Part shown: positions 27,643 to 53,116 of the stretch, piece after piece | How positions within the stretch are numbered: the stretch's first letter is position 1 | How the letters are laid out: every line of letters starts with the position of its first letter | Source of the DNA: a virus | DNA length: 64,000 bases | Strand: one strand, 5' to 3' | Virus record (IMG/VR): IMGVR_UViG_3300023179_007063 | Span: 33,088-97,087 of that record | Translations under genes and position numbers: made by a program | The notes under the pieces: model-generated | Database searches by the model: none | Seen by the model: the letters and a program-made list of their open reading frames with translations, nothing else | Told to the model about the DNA's origin: nothing

Positions 27643-28458
27643 ATGCAAGACAAGTCGTCCTTCGAGATTCTTCCGACAGGAAAGCCGCACGTTTCTTTCT
27701 CTGAAGTGAAACAGTGGAAGGAGTGCTCCTTCCGACACCACCTCGTTCACGTCAAGAAGCTCGATGTCTTCAAGCCTTCACCCGTGCTAGAGTTCGGTAC
27801 TGCAGTACACGCGGCGTGCGAGGACTACCTGTTGACACGCGTCATGAAGGTAGAGATCGCACACGCAGCGATACAGGACGCCTGGAAGAAGAACGAAAAT
27901 ATCGAAGAATTCAACGAGCGTTCCCTCAATGAGGCGCTCAGAGATTCTTCTGCCATACTCTCTGAGGTCCCGGCGTTCCTCGATGAGACCTTTCCCGAGT
28001 GGACCGTGGTGGACGCTGAACACGAACTCTATGAGTCCATCGAGGGTCATCCGCACGCCTTCAAGGGATTCATCGACGGAGTCATCAAGGCGAAGGGCAA
28101 GAAGGGAGAGGACCTCTACTGGATCCTCGACTGGAAGACCTCTGCGCGAGGCTGGTTCCGCGAGAAGCGGTCAGACGACATGGTGAAGGCGCAGTTGGCG
28201 CTCTACAAGAACTTCTGGCACAAGAAGAATCCCCAGGTCCCGTTCAAGGACATCCGTTGCGGTTTCGTCATCCTCAAGAAGAGTGGTAAGCCTGGTACTC
28301 ACTGTGAACTCTTCACCGTTCCCATGGGTGAGGTCCCCATCACGCGGTCGCTCAAGGTGGTGAGTAACATGATCGCATCTGTCAAGCGGGGCATGTCAAT
28401 CAAGAACAAGAGTTCATGCACGTACTGTGAGTTCCGAGAGACAGAACACTGTCCGTAA
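27643..28458 (+). CDS. PD-(D/E)XK nuclease, Cas4/RecB-like
   Basis: SFS..K.W..C, FGTAVH, GFIDGV, ILDWKTS, QLALY, C-terminal CTYCEF...HC. Confidence 0.85.
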   Translation: MQDKSSFEILPTGKPHVSFSEVKQWKECSFRHHLVHVKKLDVFKPSPVLEFGTAVHAACEDYLLTRVMKVEIAHAAIQDAWKKNENIEEFNERSLNEALRDSSAILSEVPAFLDETFPEWTVVDAEHELYESIEGHPHAFKGFIDGVIKAKGKKGEDLYWILDWKTSARGWFREKRSDDMVKAQLALYKNFWHKKNPQVPFKDIRCGFVILKKSGKPGTHCELFTVPMGEVPITRSLKVVSNMIASVKRGMSIKNKSSCTYCEFRETEHCP

Positions 28459-28459
28459 T

Positions 28460-28810
28460 ACTTCAGCGTTGTTTCATTTCATGAGATAGTTCTTATAGAA
28501 TTATCGACACTGCAATCCTGAAAGTATGAGTCCAATTTTTTCCATCATGTCAAAAATGCATGCCCACGAGATATGGACAAACGATGCAAAAAGACTGGAA
28601 ACAATTGCTTCGATAGGGTATAGAATCCTCGTCATACGGGAGAGCGAATACAAGAATGGATCTTGGGTTGATAAGCTCGACCGATGGCTGGAGGAAAATG
28701 GAAAAGAAAAAGATATTGATACTGTCAGACCATCCGTGAACGACCACAGCTCAGCGGATGTAAAATTGGGTGAATTGCTGGAAACTCGTGGGATAGACAC
28801 CACAGCGTGA
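28460..28810 (+). pseudogene. Frameshifted remnant of a Vsr/EDxHD-type (DUF559-like) homing endonuclease
   Basis: Pieces in shifting frames read VLIEL / HCNPE / YESNFFHHVK / MHAHEIWTNDAKRLETIASIGYRILVIRESEYK. No intact 5' end. The last frame runs through GT exon 1 into the intron. Confidence 0.65.
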
Positions 28811-30214
28811 CTGGAAACGGTGAGCGCGAAGGTCAAAAAGTCTTACTATACGACAATCAGCAGCCAAGCTCCTAAGGAGAAATTCTGGAGAAGGTTCAGA
28901 GACTACGGTTAGCCTAAATCAAAAAGACACGGCAATGATCCGACAGCGCCCAACACCAAATCAAGTATGGTGATGATATAGTCCAAAACTTTTTGTAAAG
29001 TGAGCACCTCCGGAGTAGGCACACAGGCCCGATGGCTTGTATCAGGTCTGATAGAAACAGGCAAGTATTCGTTCAGATGCTTCGGCGGAGCGATTAAGCA
29101 TGACAACTACGATACGGTCGTAGTCAACCCTGACTTCATCATCAAGCCTACAAACGGCTTCGGTGATAGAAATCTTCTACGCAAGACGCTGGCTCAGGTG
29201 AAGCCTGATGCCCTGATGCTGTTTACTGACCCACGTTTCTTCATGTGGGTCTGGGAGATGGAGGACGAGATCCACCAGATGTGCCCAATCGTCTATTGGC
29301 ACTTGTGGGACAATCCTCCCTGGCCTGAGTTCAATCGTCACATCTATGAGTCGACCGACCTCGTCAACTGCATCAACTATCCGACATACAAGATGGTACA
29401 CGAGAGGTTCCCAGAGAAGACAAACTACATTCCTCACGCTGTTCCCGAAGATCTATACAAGCCGCTTCCGAAAGAAGACGTTAGGAAGTTCAAAGCAGCG
29501 CTCTTAGGCAATGAAAAGGTCGACCACTTTACGCCGATGTACGTCAGTCGTAATGCGAGGAGAAAAGTTCCGAGCGACATCATAGAGTCGTGGAAGATTT
29601 TCTTGGATGACCTTGAGGCAAAGTACGGCCACAGGAAGGCGACTCTGATCCTCCACACAGACCCACTTGATCAAGAGGGAACAAATTTATTTATGCTTGT
29701 CGACCTCTTTGGCGTGAAAGACAACGTCGTCTTCTCCAAGGAGAGAATAGGCTTCCAGGAGATGAGCACCCTCTACAACGTTTGCGACTGTGTCGTCAAC
29801 CGGTCTATGAATGAGGGCTTCGGTCTACCTGTTCTAGAGTCGATTCTATGTGGCAAGCCGCCGATAGTTGTGAAGACAGGCGGTTTGACACGACAGGTAT
29901 ACGACGATGAGACAGGTGAAAAATACGGTATCGGTCTGGACCCTGAAGTTCGAACTCTCGCTGGTAATCACTTCGTTCCCTACATCTATGAAGACTTCGT
30001 GTCTCACAAGACTTTCGCAAATGCATTCATGGAGATGTATGAACTCGGTCCTGAGGGGAGAGCGGCACTTGGCAACAAGGCAAGAGAGAGAGCGAAGAAA
30101 GAGTATAATCTCAAGAAAGTCGTCTCTGACTGGGACAACACTCTCGATTCAACGATCTCTAGGTGGAGAGATGATAGAAAGTCCTTCGACAGATGGAGCA
30201 AGATAGAACTATGA
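28698..30214 (+). CDS. GT4 glycosyltransferase split by a group I intron (exon 1 28698-28737, exon 2 29001-30214; 417 aa spliced)
   Basis: GGAGG RBS + ATG 28698. Splicing gives MEKKKILILSDHP-L-STSGVGTQAR; C-half has RNARRK and NEGFGLPVLES. Unspliced exon 1 stops immediately (CCG TGA). Confidence 0.9.
28738..29000 (+). ncRNA. Group I self-splicing intron (263 nt, no internal ORF)
   Basis: P AATTGCTGGAAA (28773), Q AATCAGCAGCC (28855), R GTTCAGAGACTA (28894), S GATATAGTCC (28975). P1: exon CATCCGT pairs with GCGGATG (28754-60), U.G at the splice site. P10: GCTCA/TGAGC. P3: TTGGGTG/CGCCCAA. Terminal G at 29000. Confidence 0.92.
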
Positions 30215-31395
30215 GCACCACCACTCTTAAGAAATCAGTACTTCTCCGCGGACCGCTTCTGACTCAGTCAGGTTACGGAGTCCATGCACGACAGATCGCG
30301 GCTTGGGCGATAGGAAGAGACGACTTCGAAGTGCAAGTACAAGCTACTCCGTGGGGTGAAACTCCGTGGATCATAGACGAAAGCGCTTGTGGTGGTCTCA
30401 TCAGAAGCATCATGGAAAGGACAGTCGACCCAGGAAATAAGCTGTACGACATCACAGTACAGATTCAACTACCGAATGAGTGGAATCCATCGCTAGGTCG
30501 ATTCAACATTGGCGTCACGGCAGCAGTAGAGACTGACACGTGCCACCCATCCTGGCCAGAATATTGCAACAAAATGTCAGCTGTGGTTGTTCCATCAGAG
30601 CATGCAAAGAGCTGCCTGTTGTCATCTGGTAAGATCACAGTCCCGATCCTAGTGATACCCGAAGCTTACAACGATGCAATCGTTGCCGCCGAGAAGACAC
30701 ACATCGATGAAGTCAAGTTCTCAACACCTTTCAACTTCTTAGTCTTCGGTCAGATGACAGGCAGCAATCCAGAGAATGACAGGAAGAACCTCTTCTACAC
30801 TGTCAAGTGGTTCTGTGAGGCGTTCAAAGATAACCAGGAAGTAGGCCTGGTCTTGAAGACTAATATGGGAAGAAACACAAAGCTCGATAGACGACTCGTG
30901 ACTAACTTGTTGCAAAATCTACTAAAGGAAGTGAGAAAGAGTGCATTTCCAAAGGTTCACCTCATTCATGGTGACATGTCAGACGCTGAGGTCGCCTCTC
31001 TCTATAGACACCCACAGGTAAAGGCCCTCTTGACACTGACAAGAGGGGAAGGATATGGTCTCCCGATACTAGAAGCAGCAGCATCAGGACTGCCAGTCAT
31101 TGCTACAGGTTGGTCTGGTCACACTGAATTTCTTAAGAATGGAAAGTACATAGAGATCTCCTATAAGCTTGACAAGATACACCCGTCAAGAGTTGATGAC
31201 AAGATCTTCGTAAATAATGCAAGGTGGGCAAATCCTTCTGAAGAAGACTTCAAGAGAAAAGCGCAGAAGTTTAAGTCTTCTGCATCTGTTCCTAAAGAAT
31301 GGGCCGAATCGATGAAGAGAGTGATCTTAGAGAAGTATTCACTAGATTCTCTCAAGCCGAAATACGACGATTTGGTGAACGGAGCTGTCCCGTGA
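30211..31395 (+). CDS. GT4 glycosyltransferase
   Basis: QSGYGVHAR, DRKN, TRGEGYGLPILEAAASGLPVIATGWSGH; start at ATGA overlap. Confidence 0.9.
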   Translation: MSTTTLKKSVLLRGPLLTQSGYGVHARQIAAWAIGRDDFEVQVQATPWGETPWIIDESACGGLIRSIMERTVDPGNKLYDITVQIQLPNEWNPSLGRFNIGVTAAVETDTCHPSWPEYCNKMSAVVVPSEHAKSCLLSSGKITVPILVIPEAYNDAIVAAEKTHIDEVKFSTPFNFLVFGQMTGSNPENDRKNLFYTVKWFCEAFKDNQEVGLVLKTNMGRNTKLDRRLVTNLLQNLLKEVRKSAFPKVHLIHGDMSDAEVASLYRHPQVKALLTLTRGEGYGLPILEAAASGLPVIATGWSGHTEFLKNGKYIEISYKLDKIHPSRVDDKIFVNNARWANPSEEDFKRKAQKFKSSASVPKEWAESMKRVILEKYSLDSLKPKYDDLVNGAVP

Positions 31396-52082: not shown

Positions 52083-52685
52083 CTATGAAGCTTTCGTATC
52101 TAGATACTTCTTCTTGATGACAGTTCGAAGTCCGGGATTGACACGAAGCGCCTCAGGCATAATGCGGTGTCGGATGAGGTTCCGCATGTACCTCTCGTCT
52201 GTGTTAGACGCGTCATCGATCCACTGCAAGTCTCGTTTTTTCGCCCAAGAGATGAGCTCAGACTTCGGAGTGACGAGGAAGGGTCGAACCACGTTTCCCC
52301 TCCTATAAGGAAGAAGCTTCGACGCACCGTGGAGAGATGAGAAGATCCATGTCTCGACAGCGTCGTCGAGGTGGTGGGCTGTGACGATAGGATCTTCGAA
52401 CTGAGTCAAAAACTCGTAGCGACAGTTGCGCCAGTACTCTTCCTGAGACTCGTCGGACGGCTTGGGGCCGGTGATGTGTCCGACGGTGAGGGGGACCTCA
52501 CGGTCAAGCGCGAAACTCTTTGCAAAGTTCAAGGCCTCATCGGAGGTCTTGGTTCCGTGATGGAAAAAGGCCAAGGAAACGTCTCGTTTACCATTTATGA
52601 GGAAGTCCGTAATTGCTACGGAATCAACTCCTCCTGAGAAGGCTACGATACATTTCCTTGGAAGACTTCCGATGAATCGAATCAT
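52083..52685 (-). CDS. tilS: tRNA(Ile)-lysidine synthetase, minimal (catalytic domain only, 200 aa)
   Basis: AFSGGVDS, RYEF, TAHHLDDAVET, RPFL, WIDDASN, RNLIRH. True start ATG 52685; the longer track ORF overlaps the tRNA. Confidence 0.92.
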   Translation of the reverse strand: MIRFIGSLPRKCIVAFSGGVDSVAITDFLINGKRDVSLAFFHHGTKTSDEALNFAKSFALDREVPLTVGHITGPKPSDESQEEYWRNCRYEFLTQFEDPIVTAHHLDDAVETWIFSSLHGASKLLPYRRGNVVRPFLVTPKSELISWAKKRDLQWIDDASNTDERYMRNLIRHRIMPEALRVNPGLRTVIKKKYLDTKAS

Positions 52686-52690
52686 TGTCT

Positions 52691-53005
52691 TGGTGGAACC
52701 ATTCGGACTTGAACCGAAAACCCGCTGATTCACGTTTGTGTTAATTTCTTAACTCCGTGGACTATATCATCATCCTCAGCTTTACCTGTTAGGATGTCGG
52801 ACGCTTTATCCCGTATTACGTTGAAAGTTTCGTTCAACACCGGGTAGTCTCTACACCTTTCTACCACGCTTGGTAGACTTGGCTCGGGATTACCTTATCT
52901 TGCGACTTAGGCTTCCCCGAATTCATCCGATTTTCGACAATCATTTCTGATTGAAGTCACCTTTTGCGATGAGTCAGCTGCTCTAACCGATTGAGCTATG
53001 GTTCC
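52691..53005 (-). tRNA. tRNA-CAU, probably Ile2, split by a group I intron (exons 53005-52969 and 52730-52691)
   Basis: Spliced sequence GGAACCATAGCTCAATCGGTTAGAGCAGCTGACTCAT|AATCAGCGGGTTTTCGGTTCAAGTCCGAATGGTTCCACCA folds to a full cloverleaf with encoded CCA. No initiator features. Ends 5 nt upstream of tilS. Confidence 0.9.
52731..52968 (-). ncRNA. Group I intron in tRNA anticodon loop (238 nt, no ORF)
   Basis: P1: exon UCAU with GUGA (U.G). P3 TCGGATG/CGTCCGA; P4 TTCGGG/CCCGAG; R GTGTAGAGACTA; S ATGATATAGTCC; P9 GTTAA-GAAA-TTAAC; P9.0 ACG/CGT; terminal G. Confidence 0.93.
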
Positions 53006-53033
53006 GTATTGAAAGTTGTGTTTATTCCTTTCG

Positions 53034-53116
53034 TGCTCAGGGTGGGAATCGAACCCACACGGGAGTTACCCCGGCTGATTTTGAGTCAGCTGCGTCTGCC
53101 GTTTCGCCACCAGAGC
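53034..53116 (-). tRNA. tRNA-Leu(CAA), CCA not encoded
   Basis: GCTCTGGTGGCGAAACGGCAGACGCAGCTGACTCAAAATCAGCC...GGGTTCGATTCCCACCCTGAGCA; long variable arm; one U-U mismatch in the acceptor stem. Confidence 0.9.

What the first reader, a model, noticed from the sequence alone, without database searches (positions are those of the whole stretch)
28698..30214. Group I intron splits a glycosyltransferase gene after codon 13
Seen: complete P/Q/R/S core, 7-bp P1 with U.G, perfect 5-bp P10 and terminal G. Splicing restores the GT4 N-terminal strand and Gly loop (ILILSDHPLSTSGVG); unspliced RNA encodes only 13 aa. The intron has no ORF, no P2, and only 16 nt between S and the terminal G (much reduced P9). 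Known: phage group I introns are mostly described in nucleotide/DNA metabolism, lysis, packaging and psbA genes; I know of no GT example. Inference: guanosine-dependent splicing could gate a glycosylation step.
Basis: partly seen in the sequence, partly recalled or inferred. Interest (0 to 1): 0.85.

Follow-up and report, generated by a model that had tools for sequence, protein, structure and literature searches.

The report
Mobile self-splicing intron in phage glycosyltransferase
A 263-base self-splicing group I intron does split this phage sugar-transferase gene after codon 13, but it looks like an ordinary selfish mobile element that travels with a neighbouring homing-endonuclease gene (dead in this genome), not a regulator of glycosylation.

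Summary
Rfam calls a group I intron here (77.2 bits, cut-off 50). The intron is 28738-29000, with a 7-bp P1 ending in U.G, a 5-bp P10 and a terminal G29000.

Joining the exons gives ...ILILSDHP-L-STSGVG. Nineteen intron-less orthologs in IMG/VR encode this motif (minor variants) without interruption.

Ten more phage contigs carry an intron at the same site. Across the 11 introns, 96.6% of pair cells are standard pairs and 30 of 61 pairs show compensatory changes. These include P1 (intron guide against exon 1), P3 and the P7 pseudoknot.

New context: the ORF just upstream (28459-28810) is the wreck of a free-standing homing endonuclease. The intact enzyme has Zn-ribbons, NUMOD3 and a Vsr-like nuclease, the I-Bth0305I/EDxHD type.
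- It is intact in five intron-bearing relatives.
- It is present without the intron in four or five loci.
- It is absent from 15 empty loci.
- No intron occurs without at least a trace of it.

One near-identical genome pair (L014/L015) differs by the 1.2-kb endonuclease-exon 1-intron cassette plus a 1.4-kb divergent tract. This points to recombination-mediated mobility, probably collaborative homing. The cleavage site is untested, and a role in gating glycosylation has no support.

It is a new member of a known kind. First readers of this scan had already noted the same stretch and the endonuclease remnant in this genome.

The parts
28459..28810 (+). Pseudogene remnant of a free-standing Vsr-like (EDxHD-type) homing endonuclease. 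It corresponds to residues about 221-341 of the intact 341-aa protein of L014. The N-terminal ~220 aa are deleted, and a stop and a frameshift break what is left. The catalytic block (EFNGDYWH in L014) is replaced by ELSTLQS-stop. The last frame (ORF 28526-28810) runs over exon 1 and stops 73 nt inside the intron.
   Evidence: tblastn of the L014 HEG hits two frames of the window. Translation of the first frame is. phrog_22677 hit. Intact homolog at L014:615-1640.
28690..28694 (+). Shine-Dalgarno GGAGG, 3 nt before the exon 1 start codon
   Evidence: Read directly from the sequence. The GTG at 29000 that an ORF finder would pick has no such site.
28698..28737 (+). Exon 1 of the glycosyltransferase: ATG plus 12 codons (MEKKKILILSDHP) plus U28737, the first base of the Leu14 codon. 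In unspliced RNA the frame stops at once (U|GA).
   Evidence: Orthologs encode the same N-terminus uninterrupted.
28738..29000 (+). Group I intron, 263 nt, with no ORF of its own; subgroup IA-like. It has no P2 and a 16-nt 3' tail in place of a P9 domain.
   Evidence: Rfam 77.2 bits. Covariation over 11 introns.
28731..28760 (+). P1: exon CATCCGU (28731-37) pairs with the internal guide GCGGAUG (28754-60), with U28737.G28754 at the 5' splice site. The loop (28738-53) also carries the P10 guide GCUCA (28749-53).
   Evidence: Four of the seven P1 pairs change on both sides in relatives, following the exon sequence, and the U.G is invariant in 11 of 11.
28766..28772 (+). P3 5' strand UUGGGUG; it pairs with CGCCCAA at 28947-28953
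   Evidence: 100% of cells paired; two pairs change U-A to C-G in L135 and L138.
28776..28862 (+). P4-P5 domain.
- P4: 28776-81 with 28857-62.
- P5: 28786-89 with 28850-53.
- Extended P5 arm: P5a 28795-98 with 28840-43; A-rich bulge 28834-39; P5b 28799-801 with 28831-33.
- Terminal hairpin: 28805-27 with a GAAA loop at 28814-17.
   Evidence: P4 is invariant. P5, P5b and the terminal hairpin carry 11 pairs with compensatory changes. The P5a columns were poorly aligned and were left out of the second count.
28863..28895 (+). P6/P6a: 28863-64 with 28894-95; 28869-72 with 28887-90; 28875-78 with 28883-86; GAAA loop at 28879-82
   Evidence: 100% paired; 6 of 7 variable pairs are compensatory.
28899..28905 (+). 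P7 5' strand: G28899, bulged A28900, then GACUA. It pairs with UAGUCC at 28979-28984, forming a pseudoknot with P3. The G-C pair next to the bulge is the expected guanosine-binding site.
   Evidence: 100% paired. G28899-C28984 becomes A-U in four introns. The role as G-binding site is inferred from general group I knowledge.
28906..28942 (+). Extra hairpin between P7 and P3' (P7.1/P7.1a type, the hallmark of subgroup IA): CGG/CCG and GCC/GGC stems
   Evidence: 100% paired; 3 pairs are compensatory. Rfam shows it as a 39-nt insertion at this place.
28954..28972 (+). P8 hairpin: CACCA (28954-58) with UGGUG (28968-72)
   Evidence: Three of five pairs are compensatory.
28985..29000 (+). Sixteen-nt 3' tail ending in the terminal G29000. 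P9 is reduced to at most a 4-5-bp hairpin that would include that G.
   Evidence: Relatives L069, L106, L041, L138, L135 and L067 keep a longer P9 hairpin. L014, L093, L131 and L079 have tails of 7-16 nt.
29001..30214 (+). Exon 2 of the glycosyltransferase, stop codon included. It starts with UG, completing Leu14, then STSGVG...; the first 5 nt (UGAGC) form P10.
   Evidence: Pfam Glycos_transf_1 47.1 bits against a cut-off of 26.4. The protein is 64-74% identical to orthologs in IMG/VR.

Best explanation
Window 28738-29000 is a functional, ORF-less group I intron of IA type. It interrupts a conserved phage GT4-family glycosyltransferase gene in phase 1 after codon 13.

Splicing, inferred from the anatomy:
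1. The transcript folds so that the last 7 nt of exon 1 pair with the internal guide (P1, with U28737.G28754).
2. Free guanosine bound in P7 attacks after U28737.
3. P10 (GCUCA with UGAGC) brings in exon 2.
4. G29000 takes the guanosine site and the exons are ligated. The product reads ...CAU CCG U|UG AGC..., that is MEKKKILILSDHPLSTSGVG....
5. Unspliced RNA gives only a 13-aa peptide.

The intron is not a regulator but half of a selfish cassette. Its partner is a free-standing homing-endonuclease gene placed directly 5' of the GT start codon. That enzyme has N-terminal Zn-ribbons, NUMOD3 and a C-terminal Vsr-like nuclease.

In relatives with an intact endonuclease, the enzyme most likely cuts endonuclease-free genomes in or near the 5' end of the GT gene. 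My preferred version puts the cut at the intron insertion site, so that the intron shields its own genome (collaborative homing). Repair then copies endonuclease, exon 1, intron and some downstream DNA together.

In this window the endonuclease gene has decayed to a 350-nt wreck. The intron is therefore stranded. It persists because it still splices and because only a precise deletion would remove it harmlessly.

Shown here: the intron's identity, boundaries and structure; the restored ORF; the linkage to the endonuclease; presence/absence polymorphism; and the recombination tract.

Inferred: splicing activity, endonuclease activity and its cleavage site.

Rough odds for the parts: a real, splicing-competent group I intron at these boundaries 0.95; part of a mobile cassette with the endonuclease 0.85; cleavage at the insertion site itself about 0.5.
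For: Intron identity and boundaries:
- Rfam RF00028 scores 77.2 bits, above the gathering score of 50.
- Exact P1, P10 and terminal G.
- The spliced junction equals the uninterrupted LSDHP-L-STSGVG motif (with minor variants) of 15 intron-less IMG/VR orthologs and 4 more. The cultured or assembled phages Mel-JY01, immuto and LR756508 have a related N-terminal motif, though their residues differ.
- The same site is occupied by an intron in 10 further contigs.
- On 11 introns, 96.6% of cells are paired against 30-45% when partners are slid. Thirty of 61 pairs are compensatory, and 0 of 500 shuffles reach this.
- All 11 intron alleles use a UUR Leu codon, giving the U needed at the splice site. 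Nine of 15 empty alleles use CUN.
- By my reading of the sequences, the exon-1 frame meets a stop within the P1 loop in every intron.

Endonuclease partner:
- An intact 341-aa ORF at L014:615-1640 has NUMOD3 at 27.6 bits against a cut-off of 20.4.
- The AlphaFold model (pLDDT 83.6) matches Vsr (1cw0, 1vsr) and I-Bth0305I (3r3p), with TM 0.57-0.70 normalised to the target and probability 1.0.
- The equivalents of Vsr D51, H64, H69 and D97 are conserved in the family (PMC3239194).

Linkage:
- Eleven of 11 intron loci have the endonuclease or a remnant.
- Fifteen empty loci have none.

Mobility:
- L014 differs from L015 by a 1243-nt cassette replacing 104 nt. Eighty-nine of 90 mismatches lie in the first 1.4 kb 3' of the intron, and one in the next 2.8 kb.
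- Window against L014: intron 89% and endonuclease remnant 78% identical, against 65-68% for the flanking genes.
- Intron-bearing loci are scattered among empty ones on the GT tree.

The window's endonuclease is dead: it has lost its N-terminal ~220 aa, has a stop and a frameshift, and has lost its catalytic block.
Against: - No RNA data and no biochemistry. Splicing and cleavage are inferred.
- The 3' end is unusually short: no real P9, and the only possible hairpin includes the terminal G. Splicing may therefore be inefficient or need a helper.
- Endonuclease-only loci exist (L132/L133, L134, L136, L137). The endonuclease therefore does not need the intron for self-protection, which weakens the strict collaborative-homing version.
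- Higher intron identity could partly reflect ribozyme constraint rather than recent transfer.
- The direction of the L014/L015 event, gain or precise loss by recombination, is not resolved.
- All relatives are metagenomic contigs without hosts.
- Rfam did not call the L067 intron at its gathering score.
Confidence: 0.85

Rival explanations
1. Passenger intron. The free-standing endonuclease homes on its own (intronless homing), cutting somewhere other than the intron insertion site. The intron, only 40 nt away, is simply dragged along by co-conversion and gives no protection.
For: Endonuclease-only loci with intact enzymes exist (L132/133, L134, L136), so self-protection without an intron is possible. 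The co-conversion tract in L014/L015 extends 1.4 kb, easily covering the intron. Free-standing HEGs of T4-type phages are known to work this way (PMC3984707, PMC6083498).
Against: No intron was found without a trace of the endonuclease in 11 loci. The insertion site lies in the most conserved motif of the gene, the kind of target homing enzymes prefer. The endonuclease-only enzymes L132 and L134 form their own well-supported branch and may have another specificity. None of this is decisive.
Confidence: 0.3
2. Regulatory intron. Splicing depends on guanosine nucleotide supply or on translation, and so times or gates production of the glycosyltransferase.
For: Unspliced RNA yields only 13 aa, so GT output is strictly dependent on splicing. 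A regulatory group I ribozyme precedent exists: the c-di-GMP-controlled intron in C. difficile, cited in PMC3984707.
Against: Most close relatives make the same enzyme without any intron. There is no added sensor domain: the intron is minimal. Its distribution follows an endonuclease gene, not phylogeny or gene content. Any group I intron needs G, so this is not a specific adaptation.
Confidence: 0.07
3. Dead relic. The intron no longer splices, given its reduced P9. The GT gene is then inactivated, or expressed only as an N-terminally truncated protein from the GTG at 29000.
For: The 3' tail is very short (16 nt). The partner endonuclease is already decayed, showing that the cassette is old in this lineage.
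Against: Every core helix, the U.G pair, P10 and the terminal G are intact. The exon 1 frame, start codon and SD are kept. Exon 2 is an intact 404-codon frame, 72-74% identical to functional-looking orthologs. Three other introns with equally short tails (L014, L093, L131) also keep P1 and P10 matched to their own exons. The GTG at 29000 has no ribosome-binding site, and the truncated protein would lack the first beta-strand.
Confidence: 0.05

Closest known systems
Collaborative (trans) homing pairs: cyanophage S-PM2 psbA intron with F-CphI (Zeng, Bonocora & Shub 2009) and the T7-like phage DNA-polymerase intron with a free-standing HEG (Bonocora & Shub 2009), as reviewed in PMC3984707 and PMC6083498; also T4 mobE / I-TevIII trans homing (PMC2790892)
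   Same: [quoted passage not shown] The intron and the endonuclease are inherited together, and the intron is optional among relatives.
   Different: - The host gene is a glycosyltransferase.
- The endonuclease is Vsr-like (EDxHD type) with Zn-ribbons and NUMOD3, not the Endo VII-type F-CphI.
- Linkage is extreme: only the 40-nt exon 1 lies between them, and in one lineage the endonuclease frame ends 73 nt inside the intron.
- Endonuclease-only genomes also exist.
- Cleavage at the insertion site is not shown here.
- In this window the endonuclease is a pseudogene.
I-Bth0305I and the EDxHD / Vsr-like homing endonuclease family (PMC3239194), including free-standing Hef-type enzymes of T-even phages
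   Same: - A C-terminal Vsr-like nuclease fold (3r3p, 1vsr, 1cw0 matches).
- Conserved Asp/Asn/His/Asp equivalents.
- An N-terminal modular DNA-binding region with a NUMOD motif.
- Association with a group I intron in a phage gene.
   Different: I-Bth0305I is encoded inside its intron (in P5) and has NUMOD2/HTH motifs. This enzyme is outside the intron and has Cys-rich Zn-ribbon repeats plus NUMOD3. Sequence similarity is weak (profile E about 0.1; 20% identity in the structural alignment).
Phage subgroup IA group I introns (T4 td/nrdB/sunY, Twort, SPO1, and jumbo-phage introns such as those in PBS1/AR9 and Serratia phage RNAP genes)
   Same: - The core sequence; the 22-nt P3-J3/4-P4 block occurs in at least 107 IMG/VR stretches.
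- An extra hairpin between P7 and P3'.
- An early in-frame stop after the 5' splice site.
- Insertion in a highly conserved coding motif.
   Different: There is no P2 and almost no P9, and the intron holds no ORF. No cultured phage record holds more than 58% of this intron, and none has it in a glycosyltransferase gene.

Membership tests
Group I intron (Rfam RF00028) | Covariance-model score above the curated threshold | tested here: met
   77.2 bits against 50, E = 7e-18. Homologs at the same site score 58.6-93.9 bits. L067 is below threshold.
Group I intron (Rfam RF00028) | P1 formed by the exon 1 end and the internal guide, with U.G at the 5' splice site | tested here: met
   Seven bp with U28737.G28754. 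The U.G is invariant in 11 of 11, and four P1 pairs co-vary with the exon sequence.
Group I intron (Rfam RF00028) | Conserved core P3-P8, including the P3/P7 pseudoknot, supported by covariation | tested here: met
   96.6% paired and 30 of 61 pairs compensatory, against 30-45% paired in slid controls.
Group I intron (Rfam RF00028) | Terminal G and P10 defining the 3' splice site; ligation restores the host ORF | tested here: met
   G29000 and a 5-bp P10. The junction peptide is identical in form to 19 uninterrupted orthologs.
Group I intron (Rfam RF00028) | Guanosine-initiated self-splicing | not testable with these tools
   Needs in vitro transcription with GTP, or RNA reads.
Subgroup IA | Extra pairing(s) P7.1/P7.2 (or P7.1a) between P7 and P3' | tested here: met
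   Hairpin 28906-28942, 100% paired with 3 compensatory pairs.
Subgroup IA | Assignment to IA1, IA2 or IA3 (P2 and P9 architecture) | tested here: inconclusive
   There is no P2 and P9 is reduced. No subgroup-specific models were available.
Collaborative homing unit | ORF-less intron plus a free-standing HEG adjacent to the same gene | tested here: met
   The HEG is intact in L014, L067, L131, L135 and L138. Remnants occur in the window, L093, L069, L079, L106 and L041.
Collaborative homing unit | [quoted passage not shown] | not testable with these tools
   Needs enzyme assays. The HEG-only loci show that protection without an intron is possible.
Collaborative homing unit | Joint transfer with co-conversion of flanking DNA | tested here: met
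   The L014/L015 pair differs by a cassette plus a 1.4-kb divergent tract, then one mismatch in 2.8 kb. The direction of the event is unresolved.
EDxHD / Vsr-like homing endonucleases | Vsr-like nuclease fold | tested here: met
   For the L014 protein: Foldseek hits 1cw0, 1vsr, 3r3p and 3hrl, with TM 0.57-0.70 on the target and probability 1.0, but E only 0.008-0.04. Weak profile hits go to the same entries.
EDxHD / Vsr-like homing endonucleases | Conserved catalytic Asp/His/Asp residues | tested here: met
   D223, H241 and D267 are invariant or nearly so in 23 family members, and Asn236 sits at the Vsr H64 position as in I-Bth0305I. The mapping onto Vsr D51/H64/H69/D97 is by my own spacing count, using PMC3239194. 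NOT met in the window's own copy, where the block is destroyed.
EDxHD / Vsr-like homing endonucleases | N-terminal NUMOD-type DNA-binding module | tested here: met
   NUMOD3 PF07460 at 27.6 bits against 20.4. A profile hit goes to the I-TevI DNA-binding domain 1i3j.
GT-B / GT4 glycosyltransferase (host gene) | Glycos_transf_1 C-terminal domain above the Pfam threshold | tested here: met
   47.1 bits against 26.4.

The most novel reading that the evidence does not exclude
The endonuclease-exon 1-intron cassette is a collaborative-homing unit caught just before fusion.

[quoted passage not shown] In the window/L014/L093 lineage the endonuclease reading frame already crosses exon 1 and ends inside the intron.

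Together with the natural series (empty site, endonuclease only, endonuclease plus intron, decayed endonuclease plus intron), this would give a living record of how composite mobile introns are born and die.
Probability: 0.35. Interest if true: 0.7.

Novelty: new member of a known kind. Interest (0 to 1): 0.45.

Why it matters
- Annotation: the GT gene here, and in at least 10 other viral contigs, starts 302 nt upstream of where an ORF finder puts it (the GTG at 29000). The first strand and part of the nucleotide-sugar loop come from a 40-nt exon.
- Host range of introns: it adds a sugar-modification gene to the hosts of phage group I introns.
- Homing biology: only a few intron/free-standing-endonuclease partnerships have been described. 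This one comes with more than 30 natural alleles in every state of the homing cycle and a near-isogenic plus/minus pair. The origin and decay of mobile introns could be tested with a few synthetic genes.
- Not shown: it does not reveal a new kind of mechanism.

Tried and rejected
- Megablast of 28400-30300 against 50,697 phage records found no match. No cultured phage holds this locus.
- blastn of the intron alone found only partial core matches (58% coverage or less) in jumbo and other phages, none in a GT gene.
- phmmer of the endonuclease against PDB sequences gave only chance hits. The profile search gave weak but coherent hits, so I folded the protein instead.
- Pfam on the window's 94-aa ORF found nothing. 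Its nature became clear only through the intact L014 homolog.
- I first thought intron and endonuclease were perfectly associated both ways. A search starting from the endonuclease overturned this by finding endonuclease-only loci.
- The P5a helix was badly aligned by MAFFT (31-54% paired) and was dropped from the second count.
- The promoter/terminator scan around the locus gave no promoter-like site and one terminator-like site on the opposite strand, about the chance level.
- ARAGORN does not see the intron-split tRNA at 52.7-53.0 kb.
- Rejected: translation starting at the GTG at 29000, and a regulatory reading (see the rival explanations).
Full report
**1. The observation**

The window is part of a 97-kb IMG/VR virus record that CheckV rates 29% complete. 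Reading 28400-30500 confirms each sequence claim:
- GGAGG at 28690-94 precedes ATG at 28698.
- Thirteen codons (MEKKKILILSDHP) follow, then a TGA made of the last exon base U28737 and the first two intron bases.
- CATCCGT (28731-37) pairs with GCGGATG (28754-60), with a U.G at the splice site.
- GCTCA (28749-53), directly 5' of that guide, pairs with TGAGC (29001-05).
- The intron ends in G29000.
- Five nt lie between P1 and P3, so there is no P2.
- Sixteen nt follow the P7 3' strand.

Rfam finds a group I intron here at 77.2 bits (gathering score 50, E = 7e-18). It finds a second one at 52738-52980 on the minus strand. The downstream ORF is a Glycos_transf_1 protein at 47.1 bits against a cut-off of 26.4.

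**2. Is the splice junction right?**

The gene order is PD-(D/E)XK nuclease, then GT, then a second GT. It recurs in Flavobacterium phage immuto and, with an IMP dehydrogenase gene between nuclease and GT, in Microcystis phage Mel-JY01. The GT also matches an unannotated 484-kb assembled phage. The GTs of these three phages start with a related motif in one piece, for example MKKKKILLLSDDLRLTSGIAT and MEKENVLFVTDHPALSSGVGK.

In IMG/VR, 16 closer orthologs (47-73% identical) were found. Fifteen encode ...KK(T)ILxLSDHP-LSTSGVGTQARWL without interruption. This is exactly what joining 28737 to 29001 gives.

**3. More copies, and the RNA structure**

One ortholog (L014) has an Rfam-positive intron at the same place. 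A 22-nt core word found 107 IMG/VR stretches. Among them were L093/L031, L069, L079, L106, L041 and L067, each with an intron immediately before the GT exon 2. Three more (L131, L135, L138) came from the endonuclease search. Rfam scores are 58.6-93.9 bits for six of them. L067 falls below the threshold.

I wrote the window's structure by hand: P1, P3, P4, P5 with an extended arm, P6/P6a, P7 as a pseudoknot, a P7.1-type hairpin, and P8. I then counted it on an alignment of 11 distinct introns:
- 96.6% of cells are standard pairs, against 30-45% when partners are slid by 1-3 columns.
- Thirty of 61 pairs change on both sides.
- No shuffle in 500 reaches any measure.

P1 is especially telling, because the guide follows the exon:
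- ATGCCGT with GCGGCAG in L069
- CATCCAT with GTGGATG in L106
- ATGCGT with GCGCAT in L067

The U.G stays invariant throughout. P10 changes from GCTCA/TGAGC to ACTTA/TAAGT in L069. The bulge-adjacent P7 pair switches from G-C to A-U in four introns.

All intron alleles use TTR for Leu14, which supplies the U at the splice site. Nine of 15 empty alleles use CTN. By my reading, the exon 1 frame stops within the P1 loop in every copy, as is usual in phage introns.

The short 3' tail is shared by L014, L093, L131 and L079. The other relatives keep a P9 hairpin, so the reduction is derived.

**4. The neighbour: a homing endonuclease**

The 94-aa ORF at 28526-28810 overlaps exon 1 and ends in the intron. 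In L014 the same frame is a 341-aa ORF with these features:
- Cys-rich repeats.
- NUMOD3 at 27.6 bits against a cut-off of 20.4.
- Weak DUF559 and MTES_1575 hits.
- phrog_22677 at 1e-17.

Homologs in the large protein collection are often labelled very-short-patch-repair endonuclease by JGI.

A profile of 23 members weakly hits the I-TevI DNA-binding domain, 3hrl, I-Bth0305I (3r3p) and Vsr. An AlphaFold model (pLDDT 83.6) matches 1cw0, 1vsr, 3r3p and 3hrl, with TM 0.57-0.70 on the target. The model's tail, residues 308-341, is the part encoded over exon 1 and the intron, and it is unstructured.

By spacing, D223, N236, H241 and D267 correspond to Vsr D51, H64, H69 and D97. D223, H241 and D267 are conserved (residue roles from PMC3239194). 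N236 matches the Asn that I-Bth0305I has at the H64 position.

In the window, only residues about 221-341 survive, in two frames. A stop replaces the catalytic block. The gene is dead.

**5. Distribution**

| State | Loci |
|---|---|
| Empty (no endonuclease, no intron) | 15 |
| Endonuclease only | L132/133, L134, L136 (intact); L137 (decayed) |
| Intact endonuclease plus intron | L014, L067, L131, L135, L138 |
| Endonuclease remnant plus intron | window, L093, L069, L079, L106, L041 |
| Intron without any trace of the endonuclease | none |

The GT-adjacent endonucleases form one clade against more distant family members.

On the GT tree the basal lineages all carry the cassette. The crown clade is a patchwork, and the window's nearest GT relatives (L006-L010) are empty.

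**6. Evidence of movement**

L014 (cassette) and L015 (empty) are otherwise almost the same genome. Homology stops at the end of the nuclease gene and resumes at the first base of exon 2. In between, 1243 nt replace 104 nt, and the exon 1 sequences differ.

Eighty-nine of 90 mismatches lie in the first 1.4 kb after the intron, and one in the next 2.8 kb. This is the pattern expected from double-strand-break repair with co-conversion. It does not say which of the two genomes was converted.

Between the window and L014, identities are as follows:

| Segment | Nucleotide identity |
|---|---|
| Intron | 89% |
| Neutral endonuclease remnant | 78% |
| Exon 2 | 65% |
| Nuclease gene | 68% |

The cassette therefore shares a more recent ancestor than its surroundings do.

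**7. Mechanism and rivals**

The best reading is a self-splicing IA-type intron that belongs to a selfish cassette together with a free-standing Vsr-like endonuclease. This is the arrangement called collaborative homing for psbA/F-CphI and for a T7-like polymerase intron (PMC3984707, PMC6083498).

It is not shown that the enzyme cuts at the insertion site. Endonuclease-only genomes prove that self-protection without the intron is possible. I therefore give the passenger-intron version 0.3.

A non-splicing relic gets 0.05.

**8. Novelty**

My full-text searches found no group I intron reported in a phage glycosyltransferase. No cultured phage record has this locus.

Group I introns are now known to be very numerous in huge phages: 2513 in 139 genomes, in many essential genes (PMC12880540). 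Vsr-like homing endonucleases and collaborative homing are also established.

This is a new member of a known kind. It is made more useful by the natural series of allele states.

First readers of this scan had already flagged the same stretch and the endonuclease remnant in this genome. I reached the endonuclease reading before seeing those notes and tested it here.

Noticed in passing
window 52698-53017 (minus strand); intron hit 52738-52980: The second group I intron (Rfam 87.8 bits) splits a tRNA gene with anticodon CAU just after the anticodon. The 5' half GGAACCATAGCTC...GACTCAT and the 3' half with T-arm and encoded CCA are visible by eye. A PP-loop (SGGVDS) TilS-like ORF at 52083-52733 starts a few nt after the CCA. 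ARAGORN misses this tRNA. A tRNA-Leu(CAA) lies just upstream at 53033-53116.
   Followed up: partly
L067:2140-4569 (minus strand): The GT ortholog of this contig carries the intron. It also carries an in-frame ~400-aa insertion with Hint_2 (31.5 bits) and LAGLIDADG_3 (25 bits) domains, that is, an intein with its own homing endonuclease. One gene thus has three selfish elements in or next to it.
   Followed up: partly
L132/L133 2501-3421, L134 1644-2675, L136 2453-3340, L137 2297-2998: Homologs of the endonuclease sit at the same place, directly 5' of the GT start and overlapping it, in genomes whose GT gene has no intron. L134 and L136 read DHA instead of DHP at the site.
   Followed up: partly
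IMG/VR loci L023-L129; L036:765-1064: The 22-nt block AAATTGGGTGAATTGCTGGAAA (P3-J3/4-P4) occurs exactly in at least 107 viral contig stretches, so this is a large family of phage introns. L036 has a 73%-identical intron (Rfam 95.3 bits) in an unrelated gene, ORF 204-797 of unknown function.
   Followed up: partly
L006:2033-2869 (minus strand) and L016:2165-2869: In two intron-less relatives, unrelated genes (278 aa on the opposite strand; 234 aa) are inserted between the PD-(D/E)XK nuclease gene and the GT gene. This junction seems to be a hot spot for insertions.
   Followed up: no
L004:1456-2947 (Microcystis phage Mel-JY01, PP395634.1 83441-84932): The orthologous GT is annotated as two adjacent CDS (191 aa and 302 aa) separated by 10 nt. 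This could be a frameshift, a sequencing error or a real split. No intron-sized gap is present.
   Followed up: no
L014:1530-1640, L093 and window 28698-28810: In this sub-lineage the endonuclease frame has no stop before the GT start. It reads through exon 1 in another frame and through P1-P5 of the intron, stopping 73-100 nt inside it. In L067 it stops inside exon 1. Ribosomes finishing the endonuclease would unfold the 5' half of the ribozyme.
   Followed up: no
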